64,000 nt of DNA from a virus. The stretch is from the IMG/VR virus record IMGVR_UViG_3300020378_001929, positions 18,531 to 82,530 of that record. One strand, 5' to 3'. The position numbers were made by a program, and so were the translations under genes. Positions 653 to 56,038 of this stretch are shown piece by piece (the stretch's first letter is position 1; the number at the start of each line of letters is the position of its first letter). Under the pieces are notes generated by a model. The model saw only the letters and a list, made by a program, of their open reading frames with translations, did not search any database and was not told where the DNA came from.

Positions 653-1708
653 TCAATAATCCAGTCTGACCCTTAATGTCAGTTCGTTGGTGGGATCTTT
701 TCTTAATGGCTCAGACAATTTGGCAACCGCCAACAATTCATTGTCTGCCGAATATAATCCAACTGTTGTAACATATGACCGCGGGGGTGTCAACTCATTG
801 TTGCCCTTTACTACAATCTTGCTGCTCTTAAGATAAGTCGGGTTAGAACTATAATTAAATTCATTGTGATTAGCTCTACAAAAATATATTGTTGAATTAA
901 GCTCAGTAGTGTTGTTGAATTGTATGTTTGTTATTCTGTGTAGCAGTGCATCGCTGGCTATATCTATGTTCGACCCTGTTGCTATATTTGCTAGGTTCCT
1001 ACTTGTAAACAGTTTTGTGGTGCCGGTGGCTCCCATGCAAGAACTTGTTAAAACAATAACGCCGGCTTGGTAATAAATCAACCCGAAAGGATCGCCATAG
1101 CTGCCATCGCCGGCGCCAGGAGTGGATGATGTATATAAGAGTCCATATTCACCGGCGGGAGAATTTATTAAATAGCTGCTTTCGGCTCCTGAATCAGTCA
1201 AGGTGACGGTGGCGACATGCGATGCATTGCCGTATGCAGAACTGGTTCCGAGAGTCATGCTGAAGCTTCCTTTCTTTATCTCATCCTTAACCAGAAGACG
1301 AGAAAAGTTCATGAAGAAAGCAGACTTAAGTTTATCTGTTGTTGTGTTTGTAAAATTGCCATCCTTATCAAACATTCGGATGTTTCCATTGGTATCATAC
1401 CCAACCAGCACTTGAGCCATCTGGTTATACATATTTAGCTTTTTAGCATTCTGATTACTGGAAGATCCCGAGTAGGAAGATGACATATGGTAACCAAAGG
1501 AAACATCAAATATGTGATTAGCTGAGGAGCTTTGATGTGGATAATCATATACAGACTTAAACATGCCATGAGAAAAAGTCTTAATATTGTTGTTGCCTGA
1601 ATATGTTCCTGAAACGATTGAACCAGTAATTGGTATCACTTCGTGTAGAAGGGTTCTGGAACTGGTTCTGTCTGTTTCTGCAAATGGTTTGAAAAATGTG
1701 TTTGCCAT
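653..1708 (-). CDS. Virion structural protein with a C-terminal tail-fibre/baseplate anchor-like (DUF3751-like) motif
   Basis: 351 aa. C-terminal YVTTVGLYSADNELLAVAKLSEPLRK resembles the 'IREIGLFD.DG.LIAV' motif of tail-fibre N-terminal domains. Ser/Thr/Gly-rich. SD GGAG upstream. Confidence 0.6.
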   Translation of the reverse strand: MANTFFKPFAETDRTSSRTLLHEVIPITGSIVSGTYSGNNNIKTFSHGMFKSVYDYPHQSSSANHIFDVSFGYHMSSSYSGSSSNQNAKKLNMYNQMAQVLVGYDTNGNIRMFDKDGNFTNTTTDKLKSAFFMNFSRLLVKDEIKKGSFSMTLGTSSAYGNASHVATVTLTDSGAESSYLINSPAGEYGLLYTSSTPGAGDGSYGDPFGLIYYQAGVIVLTSSCMGATGTTKLFTSRNLANIATGSNIDIASDALLHRITNIQFNNTTELNSTIYFCRANHNEFNYSSNPTYLKSSKIVVKGNNELTPPRSYVTTVGLYSADNELLAVAKLSEPLRKDPTNELTLRVRLDY

Positions 1709-1724
1709 CGTTATCTCCTAACTA

Positions 1725-2780: not shown

Positions 2781-2813
2781 TAATACACTCCTTTTTAATA
2801 TGAAAAATCATTA

Positions 2814-2822
2814 ATAAATAGT
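2814..2822 (-). promoter_or_regulatory. Candidate late-promoter element ACTATTTAT
   Basis: In the 2781-2855 intergenic gap. An identical 9-mer lies upstream of the gp25-like gene (26430-26438). Confidence 0.45.
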
Positions 2823-2855
2823 ATTTTGTAGCAAATAATCCTTTTATTTTAAAAA

Positions 2856-6200: not shown

Positions 6201-6224
6201 ATGCTTAGCCTCTCCGTTTTCATT

Positions 6225-10381: not shown

Positions 10382-10402
10382 TGGGTGACCTCAACTTATA
10401 GA

Positions 10403-13400
10403 TTAATCGTAATTATAGCTATCGATTTTGGCTTCTAGCTTAATTAGTTCCACAAAAGAAAAGTAATCGTATGGCCAGTTGTAATGAACTAAGCGTTTCC
10501 CAGTGCTTGTTTTGCCTGGGAGGGCGTCTGGAAAAGTCCCCTTTGTCACCGCAGGGCGGCTAGCCCTAAGATACTCTAGTCTTTCTAGGTTTTGTGACCG
10601 CGGATCAATAGACCTTCTTCTTATTGTTTCCAAATTGTCGATACCTCTTTGCTTGACTTTAAAAACAATCCATCTAGTCTTGTTTTCTTCATCAGGAGAA
10701 AACAAGTTTCTTGGCTCAGAGACGGGAGATAGATTCTCTCCTGTCAAGTTTGCTGTTTCTAGGTAGTGGCTTACAAATGAAATATCGTTGTGGCTCCTGA
10801 GTCGACCTTCTAGGGCTCTGTTTGAGTTTGATTTTCTTGCAATCGCAGAACTATTCAGAGATTTGGGGTAAAGGTTCTGCCAAATATTGCTTAAATCTTC
10901 TGCATCGAAAGATGCATGGAATTGAAAAAAGTACATCATAAATGGGTCTTGTACCCTTGCGTTTTCTGGTACATTTATAAAATCAAACTGAGGTGGGAGT
11001 ATGAACTCTTCCATCATAAATAGTTGATATTCTATTGCGTCTAGTGGTCCACTGTTGAATGGGGTTTTCATTCTACCGTCAAGTGTTGCGCGGAATTCAT
11101 TATAATCTTCTAAGGTCAGGATCCTATCCGTTAAAACATCAGTCTCCTTTGTGATTTTCATGTTTCTCACATTGTCACTTGCCTTGTTGTACATATCTTC
11201 ATTAAATTTGATAAATTCAACTCTATTATCTAAATCTTCACGCAAAACATATGGTATAGCCACTATTGCTTCTTTGACAACCTTCCTATCTTCAACTGTA
11301 CCAACTTTATCTCTGTACTTTTTTGCTAACTTTAGATTAGCTGCAGATGGTTCTTCTTGGTCATTGAACCCTAATCTTGCGGCGAGACCAGGGGTGTTGG
11401 CGCCAATGGGGACGTCTATTATTGAAAGGTAGTATCCTTTTTTATCCGACTCTTTTAATAATTGTCCTTTTTGATGCCACATTCCAGTAGAACCAGTCAA
11501 AAAGCTGCCGGGAGTAGTTCCTTCTCTGGGTGCGCCAACTCCGTCATAGTACCTATCCCATTGGCGTTCTTTCCATGGGGATCCAGATACTTGGACTGTC
11601 GTACTATTTGCTAAGTCATAAGCTGTTGCTTTTACTGACTTAAAATCTAAAACTGGACTTTCCCATTTTGTTTGTATTACCCATCTCTCTCTTAAGTTGT
11701 TGGGATCCAAAGGCACCACATTCAAGGCACCATCGCCATCGGCGCCGTGTCCCCTGATTTGATCAAAGTTGTCTGTTCTTAGGGCTGCTATCATACCAAG
11801 ATTCAGGGAAGCAGAAAGCGACATTGCGTGGTGATAATTTGTGTTGCTATGAGTGCCAGTTTTGGGATCAGGAACATCGGCATTGCTAGCCTCTTCAACA
11901 AAATTATAATATGCATACGAACTAGAGTTCATGACCTCTCTAACTGTATAATCTTTTGTAACAGTAGGGGAAAAGGTCACTTCAACATACGGTGCGCTGT
12001 TTGCGTCCAAAAACGAAGGCACATAGGGCATATACCCATGAGTGTTGGAAACTTTCGTTGTTGTCTTGGTAAAACCTGCAGATCCCGTTGATTGAAACGG
12101 CGTGAACACATCGGATGTTGCGTTTGAATATATATGCCCTTGATATGATGAAGTTATGTGCGAACTGTTCTTTTCACCATAGGCATTTGACCCAAAGAAA
12201 GCCACCCCATGATCGTTTGATACTGTTGACGTACCAGAACCGCCCTTACAATTCACAAACACCCCAACGTTAGAGGTTGCGCCGATGAGGGTAGTCATTG
12301 CGTTCGACGGCATGACGTTGTCGAGATAAGCCTGAGTTGATGAGATGTTGGTAGATTCTTTATAGTCTAAATTTGTAGAACCAGATATCACCAGAGTGCT
12401 GCCGTCTATATGAACCTTGTTCGTTCCAGATGTTGAAAACCCTAAACCAAGCACAGAGCTTGTTAGGAGTGTTCTGATTGTTGCCATGACCTCTGCCGCA
12501 GATGGCGCTTTAAGTCCGGCGCCGGCATCTTCTTGCACCCTAATGGCTGCAAAATTGTTTGCCACTGTTGGGTATGGGAAATTTTGGTTGCCAGAGATGT
12601 TCCGGAAAGCAACTGCTGTTCCGAGGTTGGCTGTACCTTGCGCGCTCGTGACGCCGAATCGGTTTGCTCGCGAAGTTGCTGGGACTGTTACCAGACCTTG
12701 CAGGGCTCTTTCGATATAATTTTCAATACTGTTATCTGCATCATCAACCCAAGAATAAAAACCAGAAGCACTATGATAAAGCATTATTTCAATATTGTCA
12801 TCTGGACCTTGGATAAAGATTCTAGGATTTCTTGTGTAGTGTCCAGCAGTCGACCCGGTCAAAGTGTAACCGGCATTTGAATTACTTGATCCAGATGGAT
12901 GCCGCATTGTTAACTTGATGTGCGCTGGAATTCCAACGGGGTTACCTTGATACTTGGTTATGGCAACACCGGTGCCATCGCTACCTGCTTCCGCTACGGG
13001 TGGACCGAAGGCTGAGTGCCTGTCATACATCATGGTATCAACGTTTTCCAAGTAAATTCTCATCTTGTAATCGTTTCCAGAAGTAAACGTTTGTTTTCCT
13101 GGTTTTGAGACCTTTGTTGTCAAATCCCCATCCTTAAGGAAAAAGTTTACAGTCTCTGCGGCAAAGTTTTGCATTGCCAAAGTATAGGGAGCCAGCTGGG
13201 ATGTCAAGCTTCCTTCATTGTTTACAAAGAGCGAACCTATGTCTTTCTTTGCAAGAGTATTAAAAGATCCGAATAGTGCTGGTCTCTCAATAATTTTATT
13301 AAACTGTTGATTTCCATAAATAAGACTAGCACTTGGGTGAGGTTCGTTGTCATAAATTCTAACGTTAAACAAGGAGCTTGGACTCAACATTTCCTCAAAC

Positions 13401-16400
13401 TCTATTCTCTTGGACACATGCCCTCGAAGTCGGGGGATACCGTAAACGGTGCTGGATCCACCAAGCCCGCCACGATTGGTCAAGTTAATTACAGATGCAG
13501 TAAAAGGCAAAGGCGCTTTAAGGGAACCTGTGTTATCTCTAAGAATTAGTTTCTTGTCCATACCATCTTGCGCGAGAGGATGTGTTCCGCCAACTTGATG
13601 GGTGCTTGTGCCGGCACTGCTGTCGCCAGTTTGACCAATCTCTGCTTCGGCATTCAACATTAACCATGGCACACTTGAGCCGAAGTCTGTATTGAAGACT
13701 ATTTGCGAGTTCCCTTTGTAGTTCGCCATTATATCATTGTTTGACGCGTGATACTGTCCGACATCGGAGAAAGCAGCGTGGATATTTTGGATTGATCCAT
13801 AGTCAGTACCATCGTTTCTAGGGAGTCCCCTGTAAACCCCACCAAACGCACCGGAAAAAATAGGATAATCTGTGGCAAGACCTGCCTTAATTGAGTTAAA
13901 TAATATACCAGGTCCAAATAAAGGTTTCGTAACCTGGTATCTGGATGCGTTGGCTCGAAGTTTTATAAACCTTTTCTGCTCTGTGGAGCTTAATCCGCCT
14001 TCATCTAGCTGAGATATATCTATCACATTATCATTTGTAACAACAACATCATCGGGTAGATAATTCTCATAAAACAATTCTGCTATTTGCACGGTTCTTT
14101 CTGCAGGATAAAAGCCTTTATAAGGCAAGAACTTAGTAACTGCTTGACATCTAAAGTTTATCCTAGCATGTTCAAGGTTGTTTTCTTTGTCTTGGCGATC
14201 TCCGCTGACCTCTTCATCGTATATCTGGAAATACTTAAGAAAATCTGAATTAGAGTATGTCTTAAAAAAGTTACCGCCGTCGGTAACATTATTGGAAGAA
14301 CTCAAGTATACGGCTCCAGTCAATATCAAGAAATCATCTCCAATGTTTGGGTACTCTCTTTTAGACTGTACAATATCGTCAACAAATTCACTGATTCTAA
14401 ACTCTGGCACGAGGGAGTGATCTTGTCCTAATATCCTGGTTTCTGCTGCATAGTCAGAATAAGAATCATAGAAAGGTCCCAGCGTTCCACTTGCTGCTTC
14501 CCACTTTGCTTCGCCGGCGAGATAAATAAAATTTCCGTAGGACTGCGGGACTCTTCTGTTATAAATAACAGAATGTGGAGGTGTACCATATAAGTTATTC
14601 ATTCCTAGAGGAAATGTACTGTAATCGTTTTGGAGAATGCCCTCCCCTCTTGTTCCCTGCTTTCCTGTACTAGAAGTTAAATAAATTGTGTCGCGCGTCA
14701 TAAAAGATACTCTTATGTCTACTGGTGTTGACCCAAAATCTCTTCTAGAGTCTAGCGGCCATGTCGAAGACGTTATGTGCAGGATGCCGCGGTGGGGGTT
14801 AAAGCTCCCAGTATGCTGCATAAGAACCAGGAGAGCATCTTTGCCAGCGAATGAGTTTTGCGGACTTTTTAGCTTTTTATCTTCAAATTCTGGGAATAAC
14901 CTTAAAGTAGTACCGGCGTTGGATCCGCCGATGATTGACCCTGCTGCAGTTCTCGTTGTTGCCCTTTCAGGTCGAGTGATAGAAATAAGTTTAGCGCCGA
15001 AAATATCGTGAGTTACATTTCCTGATAGAATTAAGTGTCGGGTGTCTCTATCTGAGTTCCATGGAAAATACTTAAACTTTGTTCTTTCTCTTGCAAATTG
15101 ACTATAAGTGTTTACCTCTCGGGGGTAAATTGTTTCCTTATAGTTTATTTCTAGCATTTTTTGCTGAACTTGATAAGAATCAAGTAAGTTATAAGCGTAA
15201 TCAAAAGTTCCATGCGTACGCTTTTCTTTGAACTGTATGTCCTTAATAAAATCTGAATTTGCAAAACTTGTAATATCGTTCGGCGCGGTGTTGGTGCTGA
15301 TAGTGCCGGCTGATTTCAATATCTCTGGAATTGGCATTGACAGATCTTTGAAGTATTGTAATTTTCCAAACCAACTTAACTCGCGCTGGCGTTGAGATAA
15401 GCGCGGGTAGAACTCTTTGTCTCTGGAGGAGTTTACAAATTCTCTTGGATCTCTAGGGTCGCGACCAAGCGTAAACTTTTCATCCTTATTTAGGGTGCGG
15501 TTTGGTATTCGTTTTGACCCCAAGATTATACGAATTGGATTGAACTTTCCAGTTGCAACAGGGTCAACATAATTTTTGACCACTCTGCTTGCATTATAAG
15601 CTGGCTTTGAGTCCAAAAACCTAGCCCTCTCGTACGGATCAATAATATTGGCATGCGAGCTGGCTGCAATATTCATCGATGGTGCAACTTCTGACCTTAC
15701 CAGGTAAGACGGAGAGGTTATTGCCCTTTTCGGGAAAGCCAAGAACGTTCTAGATATCGTATTGGTTTTCCGGTGAGCGCGGGCTATTGGATGGTTGCCT
15801 GTTCTAATTTGTTTCCAGGATGGCCATCCATACGGACCTTGTCGATGAACTATGATGCTGTTTAATAAAGACTTCTCTCCAGCATACTTATCTTCACCTC
15901 CAGAGTGAAATGGAGGGTTTATTAATTCCTCACCAGCTAGACCGTTCATGAAAAATTGATTTAAATAATTAGCACTTAGGCGAGACATGTCTCCTGTGAC
16001 ATTTGTTATCTCAAGGGATCCATACCCCACTGTATTAGTGGAAGAGGAGATTGGTTCATAAATAGCAGCGTTTAATCCAACAAAATCAATAGCTCTTGTT
16101 TGCGAGGGATTTGCTGACTGTTCACGCGCTAACCCATAAAACATATTATTCTGATATGCGTAATATACCACTTCACTAGCGCTTAAAAATTGTATCGATT
16201 TTGCACTGGCGCTAGTATAAGTGTGCTGATGTCCTAAACCTGCGTTCCTGCTTACAAAATCAGACTTTGTATTGACTGCGCTTGCCGTGATCCAAGAATA
16301 GTGAAAATCATTTTGTGGTATCGGATGCTGCACGAAAAAGTTATCTGCTTTTTCCACTAACGACGCTTTGCCCCCAGATGATCCCAAAGAATAGTTTCGA

Positions 16401-19400
16401 TTAGTTACGTGAACAGACTGTTGCGCTTTGCCGAACTGCGTTACAATAAAGTTGCCCGGGTTTTTGACGCTTAAAACAATGCTCCAGGTGTCTCTCGAAG
16501 CGAGCCCTGATGTCGTACCCTGATTAAAGCGATGATGAAATGAAAGCGTTGTAAAATTGCTGGCTTTGGAGTCGCCGTGGTGGTCAACAGATGCTGAAAG
16601 ATGGTTCCGGAAACCCTCCGCAGACAGTGCAGTATTCGGGTGGTCGAAAAGTGTCTTTATCACTTCGGCTTGCATTCCGGTGAGCGAGTACCCGTCCGGT
16701 GTGGTATCGAAATTGCTTCCGCCACTTGTGAAGTTTGACGCCGCGGCGCCAACGGCCAATTCCTTTGGTGAGCCAGTGCCGAAATCTATAGCTATTGTAT
16801 CCCCTATTTCAAGCGGTTGAAACATAATTATGCTTGCTGGAGTATAGTAAGTTCCTCCTGATCTTTGTCCGCCGCGGAGAGATTTTTCTTTGTGAAGTCT
16901 ATTGAGGACTGCTCTTGTTGATAGATTTCTATAGTTTAGACCGTTATAGACCGAATATTCTTCTGACTCTTTATCTCGACCATAGACCCCTTGTGTTTCT
17001 GGACCACCAGGAGACGAAAACCTGTTAACAAATACATGCTTTGCTGTGCCCCTGGATGGCACTGTATAATCAATTATACCGGCTCTAAGTTGTGTTCCTG
17101 TTGTGACAACGCTTCCACTATCCTTTACATAGGCATTGTTCAGGCTTCTACCAGACGTTTGAACAATGTCGTAGTCTTCCCTGTAGTTGCCCATTGCGAT
17201 AGGTGAGATGCCAGTATTTTCTTTTATGTTTCGTATATTTACTGGACCTTTGACTCCCATACCGCGTGGAGTATATGACCGCGGACCGGTGGATTGCTTC
17301 ATTGTAAAAACAGTACTTGACGCCGACAATATGTAGGCTTCTGGTCTGTCTTTGTCCGCTGTTCCAAATTTCACTCTTCTGTGTGGCATGCCACCGACAA
17401 ATTCTCTAGTAAAAACCCCTTGCATAACACCATAATCATCATCATGATTATTTGTTAGGGTTAATTTGTCCTTAAAATTAGAAAAGTCTGTACCAACAGA
17501 GGAGCTGTACAAAGTAAATGGGAAAATCATATCGGCATCTGCGTCTAAATACCCATCTGTACCTGCCGTGTTAGCAATAGCTGTATATATATCTTCATGC
17601 TGAGGGTCTATAACATCATTGCAATTCTTGAACTCATAAATGTCTGATTTGTTTACAGTTATTTCTCCACCAGAAGCGATTATTGGTTTGTGCAAAAATT
17701 TATTTTTTGACGCGTTTCGATTTGATCCCATATCTAAAGTTCTAAGATGATCACCAACAAAGTTATATGGCCTAGATAATCTTCTAAGTACGTATGTAGA
17801 TCCGGCGGCAGAACTTACTACTGTGTTTATCCTTTGTCTTATCTGCTCTCTGTCAGGGTTTACATTATCCGACACTGATAAAACCTTGTCTCTTTCTGCT
17901 CTTTCCTGCCACCATAGACAATTTTTCGGATGATCTTGGAAAGTTGTTACTACCGTGTTTGTTCCTCCGGCGAATGCTGCCGAGATTGAGGCACTCGAAA
18001 AAGTATGTTGATGAGTTGTATCTTGTAACTGCGCTGACAAATGATTAGTCAACGAGTTGCTGCCTCCTCCGGAATCATAATCTACACTAATACTTGCAGC
18101 CGAGTGGAGACCTGTGAAAAATACCGTTCGAACGGTGCCGCCGGCGCTTGCAGTCAAGCTTTGGAGGTTGGTCCCATCAGTTCCGTTTACTGCGGCGATT
18201 ATACGATCTCTCATAGTGGTGACTTCATTTGGAGGCACTGTACCAATTGGAATCTCTCTATCATCCGAAGGCGGATAAGTTGAGTTACCAGTAAATGTTA
18301 ATGTTCGACTGAGTCCTCCGTCGGAAACAAGTATTGAGCTGCTAATAAACTGTGATCTATTTGAGAAAGCAGATGTATTCAAAGTAAAAAACTTTTTCTG
18401 CCTTCTTGTTGCAGCGGTTATTGTAGTATTACCTGCGGTGCCAGCCGTTGCTTGAGTCAACGTTACAGTATTTGTTCCAGCAGAATGATCAAGAACGATT
18501 TTACTGTTGGAAGAACCAGCGTTATGTCCCGTGGCACCGTTGATGGCAGTGACCAAATTAGCATAGGTGGTATCAACGTTTCCTCCATTAATTGATACTG
18601 CTATGTTCCCACCTGCAACCGTGCCGCCGCCGGCGGCAGAATTAAATTCATAAGTCTTGCTGGTCCCGTCTGTGGAAATTATAGTTAATGTATCCCCGTC
18701 TTCAGGATTTCCAGTGTATACTATTGATCCGGATGCAGCAGTCTGAGTTGATGTTGATGATGTAAGGAGCGGGGCATGACCATGCTCCCAATCATATAGA
18801 AGCTCGTTTACACCTAATATTTGCCCAACAAGCTTTGGATCCTTGTACTCAAATTGAGGTGCTTGATGCTTGTACTTATTTCTTTCAAATACGTGGCTCT
18901 CTACTACATCCTCTAAGTTTAAATTCATATTCGAAGTCGCTGGTTGCAACTGTCGAAGAAGATTTGCGAGAGAAGAGTCTATCCATTTATAGTATTCGAT
19001 AAAACTTTCAAGATCTATCTTGTTTTCTACTCTAGCGAAGAATCTATCTCTCAGTTTCTCCAGTGTCTTATATTCTTGGCGATATTTGTATACTGGCTCA
19101 CCTATCAGATTGTTAAAGGCGGTGGCGCCAGCTAACATGTTAAGCATCTCTTTAGATATGACTTGGTACATGCTTTTTTCATATGTATGCAAGTATGACA
19201 TTGGCTTACTGTCTAGAGTAAAAGAGTCAACCTCTCTATCTTTAATTTCTATTTTGGACTCTGCCTCAAGGTTATCCACATTTAGATATCGAACATTTGG
19301 TATATATTCCTGTCTAATGGACCCTTCTTGGTGCTGCAAGTTGTGAGTCACTGCTGGGTATTTGTACCCTGTGATTGGTCCATATTTTGTTATATTTTCT

Positions 19401-22252
19401 GCAGAACCTGAAGAAAAGTCATAAAAATAACTTGTACTTGCATTTAACTTATTTACGTTGTCAAACTGCCAGTTTAAAACTAGAGCGTCAGACCTGAGCC
19501 TTGAGGCGCCGTCGTTGTCTTTCTTTCTGAAAAGAGGATTTGTTCTTCCTAAGTTTTCTATGCTCTGGGCGTGCTGCTCCATTTCTGACTTCTCTAATAA
19601 GTCGTCCCACACACTAAAAGAAAGAAACTTGCAATCACTGGTATTTCTAACAGTACCAGTGATGTTTTGTCGCGATGCGCCAAGGAAAGCGCTCTTGTTC
19701 CTTGACATTATTTTTTCATAATTAGCCTGACTAATGGAGGACGTAATGTGAAATTCCGACGTCTTGACATCTATGTCGTATCTATAGCCAATAAAATCAA
19801 CTTTATACTCGCGGGTAGTCTTGCCATCAGAAGATGTCAATTGCGATAAATTGTCTTCTGTGAACCTAACTGCTAAATACCACGGAGTATTTTCATAAAC
19901 GTGATTAAAGTACTCTGTCTTTATTATGGGAAAAGTTCCCTTTGAAGAACTAAGTTGAAAATAACAACCTGAATTTAAAATATCTGACTTTATTGTCCTT
20001 ACAACAAATCCAGAATAATTGTCAGATGTAATTACCAGATTGGCGCCGCTGACTTCGTTCATTCCAAAGACCGAACTTGTTATTGCTGTTTTTGAGTGAT
20101 CTAATATTGTGGGAAATAACACCTTTCCCTCGATCGTGAATGAAGGCTGACTTGATTTGCCTTGTATATAGTTTCTCTCGTCTGATGCGCTGTTAGATGC
20201 TGTCTGAAGCAACGTGACTGAGTTGTTGGATCCCGTGAAGGCAAAAGATTTTACTGTCGCGGCTTCATAAATTGGTCTATTTGATATTACCTTTTCAACG
20301 TTTTGTCCATAAATATTTGGCGAAATAAGGTTTTCGTCAACGCCAAAGCACCTTATGAGATTTCTAAAAGATTCTTTTGTACCCTTTTGTTTGAAAATAT
20401 AAGCTATGTTTGCATGCACAGAGTTCAAGATTTTATTCTTTATGTTCTCTGCCTTTGAGTGTATTAAGTTCTGCGAAATGTTTGTATTTGGATCTGCAAT
20501 GTCAAATTTTAGATTGTAAAAATACTCATTTAAATCTGTCTTATTTACAATGGGGCTTTCAGTTACACCAAAGCCCTTACCAAGAAGATTTTGTACTGAA
20601 AAATTCTCTTCTCCAAACATTCTTGCATACGAAACATCGAAATCCTTACTGCAGCCCAAGAGGTTATAAAATGAACTATTACCTGAATAATCTGACGATC
20701 CCCTGGCGTACACAAAGTCTTTGTATTGCGTAAACCCTATCTTTGGTATGCCATCTATCATCATCTTGATTGAGTCAAATTGTTGACCTATACTCTGTAA
20801 TAAAATAGAAAAATCACTTTCTATGTTGCTTGATCCAGCATTAGTTTCAAAAGCCCATTGAGGAACACTTCTGAACAGGGATGAGTGATTATTGTGGTCG
20901 TATGCTTTACCAATTTTTAAAAGGTCCTCTTCTGCTGCGACGACGCGGGGTGAGGCGAAATCTATTATTGGGTCACCTAGTTCTCTTTGACTAGTCACCG
21001 TTGCGTTTGTTATTGCTGATTCTGACGTCCGGCTGTTGGTGGACGAAAATCCAATTATCTCTCCATTATTTATTCTACCAGAGCTGTCTAGAACTATTTT
21101 ATCTCTGATTTCATCGTTTCTCAGTCCTTCATTGAATTTGTAATAAACCCCCAAAAGACTATTGATGTTTTCTTGATCAGTTGCCCCGTTGACAGGAAAA
21201 TCGTAATAGTTGCCAATCTCTTCTGCCGTTCTTTTTGTTTTCCAAAATCTAAACTCATCGATAGATCCACTTAATTTTCCGTAACCTAATCCACCATTTG
21301 AGTCTTTTTGGGTCCTCATAGCTCCGATGCTGGCGTTATAGTAACCTTCAACTGCTCCAAAGGTGGCTGTGGAGACTGACACCCTATTATTGAAGTTGCC
21401 GTCTATATACAACTCTATTTCTAAGTTTGATCCAGTGTGAAAAGCTGTAACCGCATAGTGGTGGAAGGCGCCATCGGCGATTGTTTCTTTTGTAATGTCG
21501 GCGCCGATGTTTGTTCTGTTGGCGCCTGCCGTTCCGGACATGTAAGTTACATAAAATGGTGACCCGGCTGAGCTTCCTGAAAGCTCTATTAGAAACCTAC
21601 CATATGATGAGGCACCCTCAGAAGCATGAGTGGTGTGCGAGTCAAAAATTATTTCGCTCTCTGTGAGAGAGTGACTAATAAAGCTGTTCTTTTTGAGCCA
21701 AAACTCCACAGTATTTCCAGCAGAAGGGTCTAATTTTAAACTGCTCTCTCTTCCCGAATCAGAATCGATAACTGTACCCACATAGGGTCCACCTGAAAAC
21801 TTTATGTATTCTGGATTACTTGATAGTCCGTACTTTCCAGAAGTGGCAGCTGCGGTGCCCCAACCGCCTTTTGAAAAATTTACATGCCCTACCTCTAAAG
21901 GAAACTCATGTTGCAGTATAGCCAAATCTATAGCAGATGCGCTAAGTGCCCAGTGGATCTTTTCTAGAGCAGACCCATCGTATGGATAAAAATTTGTTAT
22001 GTAATTAAAGGCGTTTTTAAAATATTTCTCTGCGCTTCCATAGAAACACCAAGTAGAGGGATCCCTAACATCAATCGCGGGTATCACCCTGTCTGCTAAT
22101 TTTTGATAAGCTATGGCATAATCCGGGGACTCTACCACATCATTGTATCTTTCAGCTGACGGTGATGCTACTCCCACTTTTCGGGGGTCATAAAATGCTT
22201 TACTTTTTTCCTCTTCGGACATTTGAGGAAGAAATATTTTGTCTTTTTTCAT
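10403..22252 (-). CDS. Giant baseplate/tail protein with LamG (concanavalin A-like) domains and a gp7/P2 gpI-like motif
   Basis: 3949 aa. LamG signatures TVEFWLK, FHHYAVT, LYIDG, LSGSIDEFRFWKTKRT, YYKFNEG, plus a second degenerate LamG (FTIEG, WYLAVR, FSVWD). IFKQKGTKESFRNLIRCFG resembles the 'KGT' motif of baseplate wedge gpI/gp7 proteins. Lies downstream of the gp6-like gene. Confidence 0.7.
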   Translation of the reverse strand: MKKDKIFLPQMSEEEKSKAFYDPRKVGVASPSAERYNDVVESPDYAIAYQKLADRVIPAIDVRDPSTWCFYGSAEKYFKNAFNYITNFYPYDGSALEKIHWALSASAIDLAILQHEFPLEVGHVNFSKGGWGTAAATSGKYGLSSNPEYIKFSGGPYVGTVIDSDSGRESSLKLDPSAGNTVEFWLKKNSFISHSLTESEIIFDSHTTHASEGASSYGRFLIELSGSSAGSPFYVTYMSGTAGANRTNIGADITKETIADGAFHHYAVTAFHTGSNLEIELYIDGNFNNRVSVSTATFGAVEGYYNASIGAMRTQKDSNGGLGYGKLSGSIDEFRFWKTKRTAEEIGNYYDFPVNGATDQENINSLLGVYYKFNEGLRNDEIRDKIVLDSSGRINNGEIIGFSSTNSRTSESAITNATVTSQRELGDPIIDFASPRVVAAEEDLLKIGKAYDHNNHSSLFRSVPQWAFETNAGSSNIESDFSILLQSIGQQFDSIKMMIDGIPKIGFTQYKDFVYARGSSDYSGNSSFYNLLGCSKDFDVSYARMFGEENFSVQNLLGKGFGVTESPIVNKTDLNEYFYNLKFDIADPNTNISQNLIHSKAENIKNKILNSVHANIAYIFKQKGTKESFRNLIRCFGVDENLISPNIYGQNVEKVISNRPIYEAATVKSFAFTGSNNSVTLLQTASNSASDERNYIQGKSSQPSFTIEGKVLFPTILDHSKTAITSSVFGMNEVSGANLVITSDNYSGFVVRTIKSDILNSGCYFQLSSSKGTFPIIKTEYFNHVYENTPWYLAVRFTEDNLSQLTSSDGKTTREYKVDFIGYRYDIDVKTSEFHITSSISQANYEKIMSRNKSAFLGASRQNITGTVRNTSDCKFLSFSVWDDLLEKSEMEQHAQSIENLGRTNPLFRKKDNDGASRLRSDALVLNWQFDNVNKLNASTSYFYDFSSGSAENITKYGPITGYKYPAVTHNLQHQEGSIRQEYIPNVRYLNVDNLEAESKIEIKDREVDSFTLDSKPMSYLHTYEKSMYQVISKEMLNMLAGATAFNNLIGEPVYKYRQEYKTLEKLRDRFFARVENKIDLESFIEYYKWIDSSLANLLRQLQPATSNMNLNLEDVVESHVFERNKYKHQAPQFEYKDPKLVGQILGVNELLYDWEHGHAPLLTSSTSTQTAASGSIVYTGNPEDGDTLTIISTDGTSKTYEFNSAAGGGTVAGGNIAVSINGGNVDTTYANLVTAINGATGHNAGSSNSKIVLDHSAGTNTVTLTQATAGTAGNTTITAATRRQKKFFTLNTSAFSNRSQFISSSILVSDGGLSRTLTFTGNSTYPPSDDREIPIGTVPPNEVTTMRDRIIAAVNGTDGTNLQSLTASAGGTVRTVFFTGLHSAASISVDYDSGGGSNSLTNHLSAQLQDTTHQHTFSSASISAAFAGGTNTVVTTFQDHPKNCLWWQERAERDKVLSVSDNVNPDREQIRQRINTVVSSAAGSTYVLRRLSRPYNFVGDHLRTLDMGSNRNASKNKFLHKPIIASGGEITVNKSDIYEFKNCNDVIDPQHEDIYTAIANTAGTDGYLDADADMIFPFTLYSSSVGTDFSNFKDKLTLTNNHDDDYGVMQGVFTREFVGGMPHRRVKFGTADKDRPEAYILSASSTVFTMKQSTGPRSYTPRGMGVKGPVNIRNIKENTGISPIAMGNYREDYDIVQTSGRSLNNAYVKDSGSVVTTGTQLRAGIIDYTVPSRGTAKHVFVNRFSSPGGPETQGVYGRDKESEEYSVYNGLNYRNLSTRAVLNRLHKEKSLRGGQRSGGTYYTPASIIMFQPLEIGDTIAIDFGTGSPKELAVGAAASNFTSGGSNFDTTPDGYSLTGMQAEVIKTLFDHPNTALSAEGFRNHLSASVDHHGDSKASNFTTLSFHHRFNQGTTSGLASRDTWSIVLSVKNPGNFIVTQFGKAQQSVHVTNRNYSLGSSGGKASLVEKADNFFVQHPIPQNDFHYSWITASAVNTKSDFVSRNAGLGHQHTYTSASAKSIQFLSASEVVYYAYQNNMFYGLAREQSANPSQTRAIDFVGLNAAIYEPISSSTNTVGYGSLEITNVTGDMSRLSANYLNQFFMNGLAGEELINPPFHSGGEDKYAGEKSLLNSIIVHRQGPYGWPSWKQIRTGNHPIARAHRKTNTISRTFLAFPKRAITSPSYLVRSEVAPSMNIAASSHANIIDPYERARFLDSKPAYNASRVVKNYVDPVATGKFNPIRIILGSKRIPNRTLNKDEKFTLGRDPRDPREFVNSSRDKEFYPRLSQRQRELSWFGKLQYFKDLSMPIPEILKSAGTISTNTAPNDITSFANSDFIKDIQFKEKRTHGTFDYAYNLLDSYQVQQKMLEINYKETIYPREVNTYSQFARERTKFKYFPWNSDRDTRHLILSGNVTHDIFGAKLISITRPERATTRTAAGSIIGGSNAGTTLRLFPEFEDKKLKSPQNSFAGKDALLVLMQHTGSFNPHRGILHITSSTWPLDSRRDFGSTPVDIRVSFMTRDTIYLTSSTGKQGTRGEGILQNDYSTFPLGMNNLYGTPPHSVIYNRRVPQSYGNFIYLAGEAKWEAASGTLGPFYDSYSDYAAETRILGQDHSLVPEFRISEFVDDIVQSKREYPNIGDDFLILTGAVYLSSSNNVTDGGNFFKTYSNSDFLKYFQIYDEEVSGDRQDKENNLEHARINFRCQAVTKFLPYKGFYPAERTVQIAELFYENYLPDDVVVTNDNVIDISQLDEGGLSSTEQKRFIKLRANASRYQVTKPLFGPGILFNSIKAGLATDYPIFSGAFGGVYRGLPRNDGTDYGSIQNIHAAFSDVGQYHASNNDIMANYKGNSQIVFNTDFGSSVPWLMLNAEAEIGQTGDSSAGTSTHQVGGTHPLAQDGMDKKLILRDNTGSLKAPLPFTASVINLTNRGGLGGSSTVYGIPRLRGHVSKRIEFEEMLSPSSLFNVRIYDNEPHPSASLIYGNQQFNKIIERPALFGSFNTLAKKDIGSLFVNNEGSLTSQLAPYTLAMQNFAAETVNFFLKDGDLTTKVSKPGKQTFTSGNDYKMRIYLENVDTMMYDRHSAFGPPVAEAGSDGTGVAITKYQGNPVGIPAHIKLTMRHPSGSSNSNAGYTLTGSTAGHYTRNPRIFIQGPDDNIEIMLYHSASGFYSWVDDADNSIENYIERALQGLVTVPATSRANRFGVTSAQGTANLGTAVAFRNISGNQNFPYPTVANNFAAIRVQEDAGAGLKAPSAAEVMATIRTLLTSSVLGLGFSTSGTNKVHIDGSTLVISGSTNLDYKESTNISSTQAYLDNVMPSNAMTTLIGATSNVGVFVNCKGGSGTSTVSNDHGVAFFGSNAYGEKNSSHITSSYQGHIYSNATSDVFTPFQSTGSAGFTKTTTKVSNTHGYMPYVPSFLDANSAPYVEVTFSPTVTKDYTVREVMNSSSYAYYNFVEEASNADVPDPKTGTHSNTNYHHAMSLSASLNLGMIAALRTDNFDQIRGHGADGDGALNVVPLDPNNLRERWVIQTKWESPVLDFKSVKATAYDLANSTTVQVSGSPWKERQWDRYYDGVGAPREGTTPGSFLTGSTGMWHQKGQLLKESDKKGYYLSIIDVPIGANTPGLAARLGFNDQEEPSAANLKLAKKYRDKVGTVEDRKVVKEAIVAIPYVLREDLDNRVEFIKFNEDMYNKASDNVRNMKITKETDVLTDRILTLEDYNEFRATLDGRMKTPFNSGPLDAIEYQLFMMEEFILPPQFDFINVPENARVQDPFMMYFFQFHASFDAEDLSNIWQNLYPKSLNSSAIARKSNSNRALEGRLRSHNDISFVSHYLETANLTGENLSPVSEPRNLFSPDEENKTRWIVFKVKQRGIDNLETIRRRSIDPRSQNLERLEYLRASRPAVTKGTFPDALPGKTSTGKRLVHYNWPYDYFSFVELIKLEAKIDSYNYD

Positions 22253-24084
22253 GGATCAACTCTAAATCTAAATTTTTCAGGCTGCTCTATATAATTAGAA
22301 CCATCTTTAAAAACAAGTGATATTTCATATGCGTTATTTGGTTCTAATAAAGCCATATCTAAGTCAAAAAAGGACCCGCTTGAATCATAAGAAAGTAAAG
22401 AGAAGTTTGGAGTACTTCCTGTAGAATAAGGGATTACCTCATAGTTGTTTGATACTTTTATAATTCTATAATACATATCTCTTATAAGATTAACTGGTGC
22501 CGTTCTTGAAGCGACTGTGTATATATTTGGCTGCCAATTTTTATCCCTAGTGTACACCCTTAAGGTTGTTTTTTCTGTCTTAAGGTACGAGTCTTTTAAG
22601 TTTGTAATAGAAACTTTATAATTTGGAACCTTAAAATAATTGTTCGCGCTTTCGGTACTCACCGTAAAACCTGGACCTGAGTACAGGGTTGTCAATCCGT
22701 CGGCGCCGCTTGAGCGAGACCAAGTGTCATACAAAAAGGTTTCTGACCCATTGTACGCAAACGGCGCCTTGTAGACTCCGGTACTTTGTTTGCTGGCGGT
22801 AATAAAGGTTGCTGCTGTAGTAACAACTCCTCCGGCGACAGGAAGAGTTTCCGCTGTACCGCCGGTCGATGCTGTAAACAATTGCACAACTAGACCAGAT
22901 CCTGTGTTTGGGATGTCGACAAGAGTGCCGCGGCGGTAATTATATAGATAGATGTTGTTTATGTTATCGGCAGCAGGGGCTAGGCTACTGGATTTTATTA
23001 CATAACTTCTATCATCTTTGATTGAGGTATCCCATTGTGCTTCGATTTTGGGCTTTAGAAAAAACTCATGAGAACTTCTAGAATAAAACTTCTTTGTGTA
23101 GTATGACCTTTCTTTCGATCCGTTCTCATAATCCTCTCGAAGTTTAAGGACCAGTCCATAATTTTTCAAACCTGTGCCTGAAATGAACTGACCTATTGAA
23201 GCCGTTGTTGCTGGCATACTTGAACTAATAATGGTATTACCTTGTATTCCCCCTAGAGATTGTGTCAATGTTAGTAGGGCGCTGGCATTTTTAGTTGTTA
23301 TTTTGCTGCCGAAGTCGGAAGATAGGCGATTATGCAAGGCGCCTGCAGTACCTGCTGCGGTACCGCTTAGTTCTAAGAAGACTGAATTTCCCACGGAATA
23401 AGTTGAAGATGTTATAAACGTATAGGTCATTTTTTTGCCTTCATGCGAGTGGAGACTAAGAACTTGATTTTCTGATGGGTTGAATAAAAAGTTTATACTT
23501 GCTGTTGCTGCAGTGGCGGCAGAATTTTCGCTTATAAGCCATTCTTCCACCCATGGGGTTATATCAATGTCAACATCTTCTGTGCCGGATTCAAAAGACT
23601 GAGTATACTCATAGGGGACTGTTCCAGCACTAATATAACTTGAACTTGCAAAATTGGATCCTGTTGTATTCCATAACACTCCAGTACTAGCAGAAACCCA
23701 ATTACTAGCTTCAAGATCCATATAGTTTTCCATATCAAGACCGTCTCCCTCTGACCAGTTCATGACTAGTGGGTTTATGGATACTACAAAATTTTCTGGT
23801 GTGGTTTGTCCATGGGGAGTGTTTGAAAGTTTGAGTTTAAACTTTACAGAACCAGAAGATGGTATAATCCCGCTGACTCTGTCAGAGTTTATATCTGATA
23901 TTGGAAACTGCATAAGCACGCGGGTTTGCTCCAAGGAGCTTGAACTTGCTTGTCCAAAAACAGAAAACAATTCTAATACGTCTGAGGCTCCCATGTTAGC
24001 CTTTGTTGATCTTGCAGTTAAGTTTTCTCTTAGTGCGTTTGCAATTGTGTTGTCTTTATTCGATGTATATCTTTTAATGCTCAT
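22249..24084 (-). CDS. DNRLRE/CBM96-like virion protein carrying an inserted beta-domain
   Basis: 611 aa. KDNTI, RVLMQF, KLKL, NWSEG, DITPWVEEW, NYGLVLK, FYSR and PKIE follow the order of DNRLRE-domain motifs. About 120 extra residues lie between EEWL and NYGLVLK. Confidence 0.55.
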   Translation of the reverse strand: MSIKRYTSNKDNTIANALRENLTARSTKANMGASDVLELFSVFGQASSSSLEQTRVLMQFPISDINSDRVSGIIPSSGSVKFKLKLSNTPHGQTTPENFVVSINPLVMNWSEGDGLDMENYMDLEASNWVSASTGVLWNTTGSNFASSSYISAGTVPYEYTQSFESGTEDVDIDITPWVEEWLISENSAATAATASINFLFNPSENQVLSLHSHEGKKMTYTFITSSTYSVGNSVFLELSGTAAGTAGALHNRLSSDFGSKITTKNASALLTLTQSLGGIQGNTIISSSMPATTASIGQFISGTGLKNYGLVLKLREDYENGSKERSYYTKKFYSRSSHEFFLKPKIEAQWDTSIKDDRSYVIKSSSLAPAADNINNIYLYNYRRGTLVDIPNTGSGLVVQLFTASTGGTAETLPVAGGVVTTAATFITASKQSTGVYKAPFAYNGSETFLYDTWSRSSGADGLTTLYSGPGFTVSTESANNYFKVPNYKVSITNLKDSYLKTEKTTLRVYTRDKNWQPNIYTVASRTAPVNLIRDMYYRIIKVSNNYEVIPYSTGSTPNFSLLSYDSSGSFFDLDMALLEPNNAYEISLVFKDGSNYIEQPEKFRFRVDP

Positions 24085-25904: not shown

Positions 25905-25940
25905 ATAAAATTTCTCTCTATTAATTTAAATATTTTTAAT

Positions 25941-44836: not shown

Positions 44837-44838
44837 AA

Positions 44839-46078: not shown

Positions 46079-46105
46079 TGTGTCTCCTGTTTTATTATTA
46101 TATTA

Positions 46106-48756: not shown

Positions 48757-48757
48757 A

Positions 48758-50253: not shown

Positions 50254-50265
50254 AATTTTATTTTA

Positions 50266-56037: not shown

Positions 56038-56038
56038 A

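What the first reader, a model, noticed from the sequence alone, without database searches (positions are those of the whole stretch)
653..24084. [S/T]-[G/A/S]-S motif enrichment confined to a subset of virion proteins: candidate O-glycosylation sequon
Seen: by manual count there are about 15 TGS/SGS/TAS/SAS/TSS/SSS motifs in the 611-aa protein, about 9 in the 351-aa protein (653-1708) and dozens in the 3949-aa protein (ITGS, LSGS, LSAS, ITSS, FTAS, often after a hydrophobic residue). I found none in the 606-aa gp6-like protein and about one in the 1114-aa protein. The motifs are scattered through folded domains rather than restricted to low-complexity linkers. Inference: they are acceptor sites for the phage GT4/Maf-like enzymes, linking the sugar locus to surface-exposed baseplate/tail proteins.
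Basis: partly seen in the sequence, partly recalled or inferred. Interest (0 to 1): 0.8.

Follow-up and report, generated by a model that had tools for sequence, protein, structure and literature searches.

The report
Conserved serine motif on phage baseplate proteins
Three outer baseplate or fibre proteins of this uncultured marine phage, and their relatives, carry a short Ser/Thr-small-Ser motif about three times more often than chance; it may be where the phage's own sugar-transferases act, but no sugar has been shown.

Summary
[ST][GAS]S is enriched in exactly three of 39 window ORFs: the 351-aa protein (10 seen vs 2.7 expected), the 611-aa protein (16 vs 5.2) and the 3949-aa protein (44 vs 17.6). 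The excess survives shuffling within 10-residue blocks, is directional, and has no DNA-level cause.

It is conserved. All 120 homologues of the 611-aa protein are enriched, as are 115 of 120 homologues of the 351-aa protein and the 63 N-terminal homologues of the giant protein taken together. The excess comes mostly from old, fixed sites that read hydrophobic-[ST]-[GSA]-S-hydrophobic, at or beside beta-strand ends.

It is lineage-specific. It appears in five of six other sampled 'Far-T4' phages that carry a tandem GT4 pair. None of 110 proteins from seven phages without that pair reaches p<0.01.

The GT4 pair is a core feature: 27 of 31 long records have it, and the four absences are contig truncations. 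The nonulosonate/Maf module is accessory, and complete relatives without it keep the motif. So any link is to the GT4 pair, not to Maf.

Glycosylation itself is inferred only (about 0.4). A purely structural strand-exit motif is the main rival (about 0.35). This scan reported the same motif and GT pair before on other genomes.

The parts
653..1708 (-). 351-aa outer baseplate/fibre-block protein (p351a), motif-enriched. It belongs to a very large family whose C-terminal domain is shared by many paralogues.
   Evidence: 10 motifs vs 2.7 expected. Across 120 homologues, 914 vs 308. Motif sites are kept across paralogues only 25-35% identical. In the AF2 model (pLDDT 69) motifs 28, 155, 193 and 221 start at or just after the last strand residue.
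10403..22252 (-). 3949-aa giant baseplate/fibre protein (p3949), motif-enriched. No Pfam domain found.
   Evidence: 44 vs 17.6 expected; 28 of 44 preceded by a hydrophobic residue. In 63 homologues of the N-terminal 950 aa, 958 vs 294, with 12 columns at 50% motif frequency or more.
22249..24084 (-). 611-aa protein directly downstream of the gp6-like gene (p611), motif-enriched. Predicted as an array of Ig/FN3-like beta-sandwich domains.
   Evidence: 16 vs 5.2. All 120 of 120 homologues have z>2. There are 11 conserved motif columns. AF2 model pLDDT 81; Foldseek returns Ig-like arrays; 76% of motif residues are in coil.
56039..57301 (-). GT4 glycosyltransferase (p420), the first of the conserved tandem pair and the candidate priming enzyme.
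   Evidence: PF00534 at 44.1 bits against a 26.4 cut-off. EX7E signature present. Found in 27 of 31 long relatives at 54-79% identity, and in immuto, Mel-JY01, LR756508 and RM378. Best PDB relative is chlorovirus B736L.
54007..56037 (-). GT4 domain (residues 1-420, second of the pair) fused to a C-terminal MptE/Maf-like domain (p676).
   Evidence: PF00534 at 32.2 bits; PF01973 at only 22.7 bits against 34.6. The N-terminal domain is conserved and adjacent to p420 in 13 of 15 records, while the C-terminal domain is present only in some. E279 and E287 are invariant in 39 homologues.
42717..54007 (-). Accessory nonulosonate cassette: PseB-like, PseC-like, two NeuB, three CMP-transferases, formyl- and carbamoyl-transferase, a cupin, an HpcH-type aldolase, and a standalone Maf-like protein at 48758-49603.
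   Evidence: Pfam hits. Replaced by unrelated sugar cassettes in G003, G008 and G023. NeuB is in 4 of 15 long relatives.
24084..26414 (-). gp6-like (606 aa) and gp25-like (157 aa) inner baseplate wedge proteins. These are non-enriched internal comparators.
   Evidence: Baseplate_J and GPW_gp25 hits. Motif counts are 0 vs 1.1 and 2 vs 0.5.

Best explanation
The motif is a conserved, position-specific element. Its consensus is aromatic, aliphatic, [S/T], [G/S/A], S, aliphatic, and it sits where beta-strands exit into loops in the outer baseplate and fibre proteins of a deep 'Far-T4' lineage of myoviruses.

The most likely function is an acceptor site for cytoplasmic O-glycosylation of the virion. 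In this model the conserved tandem GT4 pair (56039-57301 and the N-terminal domain of 54007-56037) puts a first sugar on the nearly invariant third-position Ser. A swappable downstream cassette then extends or caps the glycan. In this phage the cassette is nonulosonic-acid synthesis plus Maf-like transferase domains.

Shown here: the enrichment, its conservation, its restriction to the lineage, the core status of the GT4 pair, and the accessory status of the cassette. Inferred only: that the GT4 pair acts on these proteins, that the Ser is the acceptor, and that any sugar is attached at all.
For: 1. Real enrichment in 3 of 39 ORFs that survives local shuffles. It is not a DNA artefact and not due to repeats.

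2. Selection. All 120 p611 homologues are enriched, median 16 vs 4.9. All 78 locus-derived homologues down to about 30% identity have a ratio of 2.0-5.6. p351a homologues total 914 vs 308 and p3949 N-termini 958 vs 294. Columns swap within the class, for example TAS 33/SGS 28/TGS 24/SAS 12.

3. Asymmetry at the 26 pooled conserved sites. Position 1 exchanges freely (S 0.48/T 0.37), while position 3 is S 0.86/T 0.04. That fits a Ser-specific constraint.

4. Motif Ser are more conserved than other Ser in p611 (0.78 vs 0.46, p 1e-5) and in p3949N (0.51 vs 0.31, p 0.001).

5. Lineage specificity. Five of six other GT4-pair phages sampled have proteins at p<1e-3: G003 and G008, immuto (7/1.4 and 60/20.4), Mel-JY01 (four such proteins) and RM378 (8/1.7). 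None of 110 proteins from T4, S-PM2, AG-345-P14, BpSp, phiPsal1, CM1 and LR756511 falls below p=0.011. The controls include Ig-like Hoc and giant baseplate proteins of about 3000 aa with similar Ser/Thr content.

6. At least four families not linked by BLAST are enriched, all in the distal baseplate/fibre block.

7. The GT4 pair is core while the sugar cassette is hypervariable. The pair spans phages of Flavobacterium, Microcystis and Rhodothermus, which argues for a phage-encoded acceptor.

8. LC-MS/MS of immuto DNA shows no glycosylated nucleoside (PMC10516641, passages).

9. 76% of p611 motif residues are in coil, against 57% for other Ser/Thr.

10. Precedents. Maf sites are Ser/Thr flanked by hydrophobic residues, with S-x-S doublets in Aeromonas (PMC9290775 and PMC11339370, passages). 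SRRP glycosylation uses a conserved two-GT priming pair plus variable extra GTs (PMC6973325, passages).
Against: There is no chemical or structural evidence of any glycan.

In p611 the motifs at non-conserved columns occur exactly at chance (325 seen vs 325 expected). The excess there is entirely about 11 old fixed sites, which a structural role would also produce. The mild private excess in the other two families (285 vs 194; 245 vs 181) may be alignment error.

In the p351a family motif Ser are not more conserved than other Ser (0.56 vs 0.64).

Hydrophobic residues on both sides fit an in-out-in-out-in strand pattern, so the motif could be a packing feature.

Permuted small-residue triplets are also somewhat enriched.

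Enriched proteins are orthologous across the lineage, so lineage specificity may reflect shared folds. All GT4-pair phages form one clade, which amounts to a single independent contrast.

LR756508 has the GT4 but no individually significant protein in the 41 kb sampled. I found no natural loss of the GT4 pair to test for decay of the motif.

Neither GT4 belongs to a known protein-O-GT family. Solvent exposure could not be computed because model coordinates are not provided.
Confidence: 0.42

Rival explanations
1. Purely structural motif. Hydrophobic-[ST]-small-S-hydrophobic is a strand-exit, beta-bulge or tight-packing element of the fold families that make up this lineage's distal baseplate. 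The small middle residue faces the core and the strict Ser is needed for steric or hydrogen-bond reasons. On this view the GT4 pair glycosylates something else and its co-occurrence with the motif is shared ancestry.
For: The excess in p611 comes wholly from fixed old columns, with private motifs 325 vs 325. Sites are positionally conserved across paralogues only 25-35% identical. Motifs begin at or next to strand ends. Hydrophobic residues flank both sides. Enriched proteins are orthologous across the lineage. Other small-residue triplets are mildly enriched. The GT4s have no demonstrated protein acceptor.
Against: The same element recurs in at least four families not linked by BLAST. It is absent from 110 control proteins, including Ig-like Hoc, T4 fibres and giant cyanophage and jumbo-phage baseplate proteins of similar composition. 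Free S/T exchange at position 1 but almost none at position 3 is unusual for two positions on the same exposed face. A structural role leaves the core, host-independent GT4 pair without a target.
Confidence: 0.35
2. The motif is functional but is not a glycosylation site. It could be the target of another modification (phosphorylation, O-acylation, or methylation/sulfation enzymes like those in some relatives' cassettes). It could also be a recurring ligand-, ion- or partner-binding loop used in baseplate assembly or in contact with the host surface.
For: Strong conservation of the Ser and a loop location fit any site-specific function. Relatives' cassettes encode methyl- and sulfotransferases.
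Against: No kinase or acyltransferase is conserved with the motif in the records examined. The only enzymes found to be core alongside it are the two GT4s. The methyl- and sulfotransferases are accessory.
Confidence: 0.12
3. Statistical or compositional artefact. Ser/Thr/Gly-rich regions, low-complexity patches or a motif defined after the fact create an apparent enrichment.
For: The motif class was chosen after inspection. TGS alone does not survive correction for 8000 tripeptides. Three of the ten p351a motifs overlap in one Ser-rich patch. Poisson p-values ignore overlap.
Against: The excess survives shuffles within 10-residue blocks. It replicates in independent sets of homologues of three proteins and in outgroups. 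It is directional family-wide, T[GA]S 782 vs S[GA]T 149. It is absent from composition-matched controls.
Confidence: 0.02

Closest known systems
Virion O-glycosylation of mycobacteriophages by phage-encoded glycosyltransferases (Che8; Freeman et al. 2023, Cell Host Microbe). The primary paper is not held; I saw it only as cited in PMC11256854 and PMC13445384 (passages).
   Same: Phage-encoded soluble GTs are proposed to decorate the phage's own virion proteins in the cytoplasm. The variable glycan could act as a surface shield.
   Different: In the mycobacteriophages glycans on capsid proteins were shown chemically. Here nothing has been shown. The candidate targets are outer baseplate/fibre proteins, not the capsid (capsid and sheath are not enriched). 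The candidate sites form a short defined motif. The GTs lie about 30 kb from the targets. The only link to an actinophage-type cassette is a 21% identical GT4 in phiPsal1, whose proteins lack the motif.
GtfA/GtfB priming of serine-rich-repeat adhesins in Gram-positive bacteria (PMC6973325, passages)
   Same: Two adjacent GT4-type proteins are conserved in every locus, followed by a variable set of further GTs that give strain-specific glycans. The acceptors are Ser in S-x-S arrangements. Glycosylation is cytoplasmic.
   Different: No DUF1975 domain and no GtfA/GtfB NCBIfam match. PDB GtfA matches only at E 0.006-0.05, over the generic GT4 motif. Both phage proteins keep the EX7E signature, whereas that review describes GtfB as a chaperone. 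The acceptors here are isolated tripeptides in folded beta domains, not long repeat tracts.
Maf (PF01973) nonulosonic-acid glycosylation of flagellins (PMC11339370 and PMC9290775, passages)
   Same: This window carries CMP-nonulosonate synthesis genes next to Maf-like domains. Maf sites are Ser/Thr in exposed regions flanked by hydrophobic residues, with preferred S-x-S doublets in Aeromonas (S159-L-S161, S167-I-S169).
   Different: Those papers state that no conserved sequon is known for Maf. The Maf-like hits here are below Pfam's cut-off, and no PDB chain matches the C-terminal domain. The motif persists in complete relatives without NeuB or the Maf-like protein. The targets are not flagellins.
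Chlorovirus-encoded glycosylation; GT-B glycosyltransferase B736L of chlorovirus NY-2A (PDB 3oy2). That chloroviruses glycosylate their own capsid is my recollection and comes from no call.
   Same: B736L is the best solved relative by sequence of both phage GT4s (E 1e-5; E 2e-8 for the profile). Both are virus-encoded and soluble.
   Different: Similarity is limited to the GT4 core. The acceptor of B736L is not given by any search.
Bacteroidota general O-glycosylation sequon D-(S/T)-(A/I/L/V/M/T) (recalled; also named in earlier scan notes)
   Same: A three-residue O-glycosylation sequon in the phylum that includes the hosts of immuto and RM378.
   Different: That sequon needs Asp before the acceptor. 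Here Asp/Glu at position -1 is 0.02 against a background of 0.11. That system is also periplasmic.

Membership tests
GT4 glycosyltransferases (Pfam Glycos_transf_1, PF00534) | Domain match above the curated cut-off | tested here: met
   p420 scores 44.1 bits and p676 scores 32.2 bits against a cut-off of 26.4.
GT4 glycosyltransferases (Pfam Glycos_transf_1, PF00534) | EX7E nucleotide-sugar motif (this definition is recalled) | tested here: met
   Both proteins show E-G-F-G-L-x3-E in the pairwise alignment. E279 and E287 are invariant in 39 p676 homologues.
Maf / MptE-like flagellin nonulosonate transferases (PF01973) | PF01973 match above the curated cut-off | tested here: not met
   24.7 bits (48758-49603) and 22.7 bits (C-terminus of 54007-56037) against a cut-off of 34.6. 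About 20 of 99 homologues carry a precomputed PF01973 hit. The profile matches no PDB chain over the C-terminal domain.
Maf / MptE-like flagellin nonulosonate transferases (PF01973) | Adjacent CMP-nonulosonate synthesis genes | tested here: met
   Two NeuB, three CTP_transf_3, one Polysacc_synt_2 and one DegT.
Maf / MptE-like flagellin nonulosonate transferases (PF01973) | The enzyme is present wherever the putative acceptor motif is enriched | tested here: not met
   G003 and G008 (both 100% complete) lack NeuB, PF01973 and any homologue of the 281-aa protein. They keep the enrichment.
GtfA/GtfB two-protein priming complex (SRRP glycosylation) | Two adjacent GT4-fold genes conserved across loci, with variable downstream GTs | tested here: met
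   Adjacent pair in 13 of 15 records. Cassettes differ between genomes.
GtfA/GtfB two-protein priming complex (SRRP glycosylation) | DUF1975 interaction domain and a match to GtfA/GtfB family models | tested here: not met
   No DUF1975 among the Pfam hits. No GtfA/GtfB model among the NCBIfam hits, and SdgA only at E 0.003 against an 800-bit cut-off.
GtfA/GtfB two-protein priming complex (SRRP glycosylation) | Acceptor is a long tract of alternating serines | tested here: not met
   The motifs are isolated tripeptides scattered in folded domains. The only tract is the nine residues at 76-84 of p351a.
Phage virion O-glycosylation (mycobacteriophage type) | Phage-encoded soluble glycosyltransferases | tested here: met
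Phage virion O-glycosylation (mycobacteriophage type) | Glycan covalently attached to virion protein, shown by mass spectrometry or staining | not testable with these tools
   No proteomic data are available. Five searches found no report for this lineage.
Bacteroidota O-glycosylation sequon D-(S/T)-(A/I/L/V/M/T) | Asp immediately before the acceptor | tested here: not met
   Asp/Glu at position -1 is 0.02 against a background of 0.11 at the 26 conserved sites.
Far-T4 phage lineage (RM378-type; PMC4360716, passages) | Capsid, portal, terminase and sheath are related to those of RM378 | tested here: met
   BLASTP of RM378 ORFs against the window's record and its relatives: portal 33%, terminase 31%, capsid 29-39%, sheath 36-40%.

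The most novel reading that the evidence does not exclude
Far-T4-type phages, an abundant aquatic group, run a sequon-directed system for O-glycosylating their own virions. A conserved two-GT4 priming pair recognises hydrophobic-[ST]-[GSA]-S-hydrophobic strand exits on outer baseplate and fibre proteins. Swappable sugar cassettes (nonulosonates here; methylated, sulfated or amino sugars in relatives) then give each phage its own glycan 'serotype'. If so, this would be the first defined O-glycosylation sequon for a bacterial virus. The glycan coat would also sit on the host-recognition apparatus rather than on the capsid.
Probability: 0.35. Interest if true: 0.8.

Novelty: new variant of a known kind. 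Interest (0 to 1): 0.6.

Why it matters
If these are glycosylation sites, then a large and globally distributed group of marine and freshwater phages sugar-coats its adsorption machinery at defined, predictable positions, with glycans that differ between close relatives. The p351a family alone returned at least 8000 database hits.

That would bear on host range, on resistance to proteases and grazers, and on how phage particles interact with polysaccharide-rich marine matrices. It would also offer a short portable tag and a soluble two-enzyme system for glyco-engineering.

It is directly testable, because three cultured relatives exist: immuto, Mel-JY01 and RM378.

If the motif turns out to be structural, it is still a useful diagnostic signature of this lineage's distal baseplate proteins. 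In that case the conserved GT4 pair remains an enzyme pair without a known substrate.

Tried and rejected
Local composition as the cause. Rejected: the excess survives shuffles within 40-, 20- and 10-residue blocks.

Recent internal repeats or shared domains as the cause.

A DNA-level oligomer bias. Rejected.

A general property of beta-rich phage tail proteins. Rejected by 110 control proteins.

A link to NeuB/Maf. Rejected.

GT4 pair as a DNA glycosyltransferase. Made unlikely for immuto by published nucleoside analysis. Not excluded for this phage.

Natural losses of the GT4 pair. I searched 31 long records. They were chosen from the records behind 87 loci, by length or by having about 30 kb or more upstream of the p611 gene. 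All four apparent absences (G004, G018, G023, G025) were contig truncations. The decay claimed in earlier scan notes could therefore be neither reproduced nor refuted.

Fold identification. p611 gave only generic Ig-like arrays at low TM-score. p351a gave no match at E<=0.001. Profile searches of PDB sequences with A1 and A3 found no relative.

PHROGs gave nothing for the three target proteins. Pfam gave nothing for either giant protein.

I did not open any paper's supplements. Supplementary data of PMC10516641 (nucleoside analyses) and Table S2 of PMC6973325 (repeat motifs) may bear on the DNA-modification and SRRP comparisons.

Subsets used:
- One search used the 120 listed of 411 hits.
- Alignment A1 used 48 of those 120.
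- One search used 15 family members, C-terminal 340 aa only.
- One search used 63 of the 66 loci that had an open downstream frame, out of 80 loci.
- One search used the 120 listed of at least 8000 hits.
- A3 used 47 of those 120.
- A2 used 39 of 99.
- One search used 78 of 80 loci.


Full report
WHAT THE WINDOW IS. All long ORFs lie on the minus strand. From low to high coordinates the window holds three blocks.

The first is a distal baseplate/fibre block: a partial 216-aa ORF, p351a at 653-1708, p351b, p1114, p1088, p297, the 3949-aa giant at 10403-22252, and p611 at 22249-24084.

The second holds a gp6-like wedge protein (Baseplate_J), a gp25-like protein (GPW_gp25) and a 3992-aa giant.

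The third, at about 42.7-57.3 kb, is a soluble sugar locus. It contains an HpcH-type aldolase, three CMP-transferases, a cupin, two NeuB, a carbamoyltransferase, a formyltransferase, a DegT aminotransferase and a PseB-like dehydratase. It also has a weak MptE/Maf-like protein (48758-49603, 24.7 bits against a cut-off of 34.6), a 676-aa GT4 with a weak Maf-like C-terminus (22.7 bits), and a 420-aa GT4.

The window is part of an 82.5-kb viral record. Its nearest catalogued relatives by gp6 are about 28% identical: Flavobacterium phage immuto, Microcystis phage Mel-JY01 and a 484-kb uncultured phage. RM378 shares portal, terminase, capsid and sheath with the window's record and its relatives. This places the phage among the 'Far-T4' phages (PMC4360716, passages read).

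THE OBSERVATION. Over 39 ORFs with 1000 shuffles each, [ST][GAS]S is enriched only in three proteins. p351a has 10 vs 2.7 (z 4.7), p611 has 16 vs 5.2 (z 5.0) and p3949 has 44 vs 17.6 (z 6.2). There is also a trivial 2 vs 0.1 in p297.

In the full record 3 of 50 ORFs of 150 aa or more reach Poisson p<1e-3, and they are the same three.

The excess survives shuffling within 10-residue blocks (z 3.8, 4.3 and 5.5). It is directional (T[GA]S 21 vs S[GA]T 8). Motifs are preceded by aliphatic residues (0.46 vs 0.20 background), and charged residues are depleted from -5 to -1.

Three points cut the other way. Permuted small-residue triplets are also mildly enriched. TGS, the top tripeptide in an unbiased scan, is not individually significant after correction. 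One Ser-rich patch in p351a contributes three overlapping counts.

Repeats and DNA oligomers do not explain the counts.

CONSERVATION. p611 has more than 400 homologues in marine metagenomes. All 120 examined have z>2 (118 have z>3), with a median of 16 vs 4.9. All 78 locus-derived homologues, down to about 30% identity, have ratios of 2.0-5.6.

Eleven alignment columns hold the motif in at least 50% of sequences. Residues swap within the class, for example TAS 33/SGS 28/TGS 24/SAS 12, and SSS 58/TSS 38/SAS 8/SGS 6. Family-wide, T[GA]S outnumbers S[GA]T 782 to 149.

Motif Ser are far more conserved than other Ser (0.78 vs 0.46, p 1e-5). However, motifs at non-conserved columns occur exactly at chance (325 vs 325). 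In p611 the excess is therefore old fixed sites, not a continuing pressure for density.

The result replicates in two other proteins. In 63 N-terminal fragments of p3949 homologues (28-64% identity) there are 958 motifs vs 294 expected and 12 conserved columns. Motif Ser score 0.51 vs 0.31 (p 0.001) and private motifs 285 vs 194.

In 120 p351a homologues there are 914 vs 308, and 115 of 120 have at least twice the expectation. There are six conserved columns and private motifs run 245 vs 181. In this family motif Ser are not more conserved than other Ser (0.56 vs 0.64).

Sites are also kept across p351a-type paralogues that are only 25-35% identical, in Mel-JY01, immuto and the marine relatives.

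Pooling 26 conserved sites gives this profile:
- Position -2: aromatic 0.30 (background 0.11).
- Position -1: aliphatic 0.49 (background 0.20), Asp/Glu 0.02, Pro 0.
- Position 1: S 0.48, T 0.37.
- Position 2: G 0.48, S 0.27, A 0.17.
- Position 3: S 0.86, T 0.04.
- Position +1: aliphatic 0.39.

STRUCTURE. The AF2 model of p611 (pLDDT 81, pTM 0.79) is an array of beta-sandwich domains. Foldseek returns Ig/FN3 arrays at low TM-score. Of the motif residues 76% are in coil, against 57% for other Ser/Thr and 51% overall. Most lie 0-5 residues from a strand end.

In the weaker p351a model (pLDDT 69) motifs 28, 155, 193 and 221 start at or right after the last strand residue. This model has no PDB match.

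No relative of either protein has a solved structure.

WHICH ENZYMES TRACK THE MOTIF. The two GT4 genes are adjacent and conserved in 13 of 15 records of 83 kb or more, including both complete genomes. p420 is present in 14 of 16 further records, giving 27 of 31.

The four absences are all truncations:
- G025 has the partner GT4 cut by the contig end.
- G023's contig starts inside a sugar island.
- G004 and G018 have only about 20 kb and 12 kb upstream of the p611 gene, whereas the pair lies 20-39 kb upstream elsewhere (my arithmetic from the coordinates).

NeuB occurs in only 4 of 15 records and in neither complete genome. Those two genomes lack PF01973 matches and homologues of the 281-aa Maf-like protein.

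Downstream of their GT4 pair they carry other cassettes. G003 has a PfkB kinase, DegT, two methyltransferases, a sulfotransferase, a 4,6-dehydratase and another GT. G008 has a GT-D-like protein, two DegT, a 2OG oxygenase, an epimerase and another GT.

Both genomes keep the enrichment. In G003 the values are 32/14.7, 8/2.7 and a weak 11/5.5. In G008 they are 28/9.3, 29/10.7, 17/4.8 and 8/1.4.

The GT4 pair is the only candidate enzyme that is core.

Both GT4s keep the EX7E signature. Their best solved relative is chlorovirus glycosyltransferase B736L. They match no characterised protein-O-GT family: every NCBIfam hit is far below its cut-off, and there is no GtfA/GtfB model among them.

LINEAGE SPECIFICITY. 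Phages with the GT4 pair:
- immuto has 7/1.4 in the protein after gp6 and 60/20.4 in a 'tail spike'.
- Mel-JY01 has six proteins at p<5e-3 in the post-gp6 block.
- RM378 has 8/1.7 and 6/1.2 in two adjacent ORFs among 85.
- LR756508 has none individually significant among 19 ORFs. Four orthologues there sum to 12 vs 4.3 (my addition).

Phages without the pair are T4 (30 proteins), S-PM2 (5), AG-345-P14 (8), Bacillus phage BpSp (21), phiPsal1 (13; it has only a 21% identical GT4), CM1 (17) and LR756511 (16). Across these 110 proteins the lowest p is 0.011.

The enriched proteins fall into about four families that BLAST does not link to one another, but each family is orthologous across the lineage. 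All phages with the pair form one clade. The contrast is therefore effectively a single evolutionary event and cannot separate 'enzyme plus sequon' from 'inherited folds'.

READING. Two explanations remain.

The sequon reading (0.42) is favoured by five points. The GT4 pair is core and independent of the host phylum, and it has no other evident target. Immuto DNA carries no glycosylated nucleoside (PMC10516641, passages). The motif recurs in unrelated outer-virion families. Ser at position 3 is strict while position 1 exchanges freely. The architecture resembles the conserved GtfA/GtfB priming pair with variable extension enzymes (PMC6973325), and Maf acceptor sites are likewise flanked by hydrophobic residues (PMC9290775 and PMC11339370).

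The structural reading (0.35) is favoured by three points: the sites are fixed and old, hydrophobic residues flank both sides, and the motifs sit at strand ends. The two readings are not exclusive.

Five literature searches found no report of virion glycosylation or of this motif for Far-T4 phages.

Earlier reports of this scan describe the same motif with a conserved GT pair on other genomes. I reached the same reading independently, before I saw them. I could not reproduce their claim that the motif decays where the sugar genes are lost.

Noticed in passing
window 42717-57301; G003 (L098 4619-13161); G008 (L103 3321-13316); G023 (L125 1-11207): The sugar locus has an O-antigen-like architecture: a conserved GT4 pair at one end and a cassette that differs completely between relatives. 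The cassette is nonulosonate synthesis here; kinase, methyl- and sulfotransferases in G003; GT-D-like protein and 2OG oxygenase in G008; GT11, UDP-GlcNAc 2-epimerase and UDP-sugar dehydrogenase in G023.
   Followed up: partly
window 653-1708 and 2-649: The p351a family is very large: at least 8000 database hits at E<=0.001. It has an invariant F-N-Y-S-x-N-P-x-Y block and a conserved C-terminal L-R-V-R-L-D-Y tail. The partial ORF at 2-649 (401 aa in the full record) is a non-enriched paralogue of its C-terminal domain (25% identity, E 3e-11). Mel-JY01 has five paralogues in tandem.
   Followed up: partly
window 9488-10381 and 1725-2780: The N-terminal ~88 residues of p297 resemble the N-terminus of p351b (29% identity, E 2e-5). 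This may be a shared baseplate-attachment module.
   Followed up: no
L119 (Pontimonas phage phiPsal1) 5764-9981: A small actinobacterial siphovirus has a GT4 (21% identical to p420), a methyltransferase and a GT2 inserted between its major capsid and neck genes. The layout suggests capsid glycosylation. Its 13 tested proteins lack the [ST][GAS]S excess.
   Followed up: partly
window 50266-51018: There is a Formyl_trans_N protein inside the sugar locus. In the relative immuto a PF00551 formyltransferase (DpdN) is proposed to formylate preQ1 in DNA (PMC10516641). So this gene could act either on a sugar or on DNA. I did not check whether 7-deazaguanine genes occur in this record.
   Followed up: no
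L120 9165-11893 and L122 12985-14136 (RM378): RM378 also has the tandem GT4 pair, although the second gene is annotated only as hypothetical. It also has a gene annotated as UDP-galactopyranose mutase-like. The thermophilic reference phage may therefore carry a furanose-type version of the same system.
   Followed up: no
window 26457-38435: The second giant protein (3992 aa), upstream of gp25, has no Pfam domain and no motif excess (9 vs 8.8). The two roughly 4000-aa neighbours therefore differ sharply in this feature.
   Followed up: no
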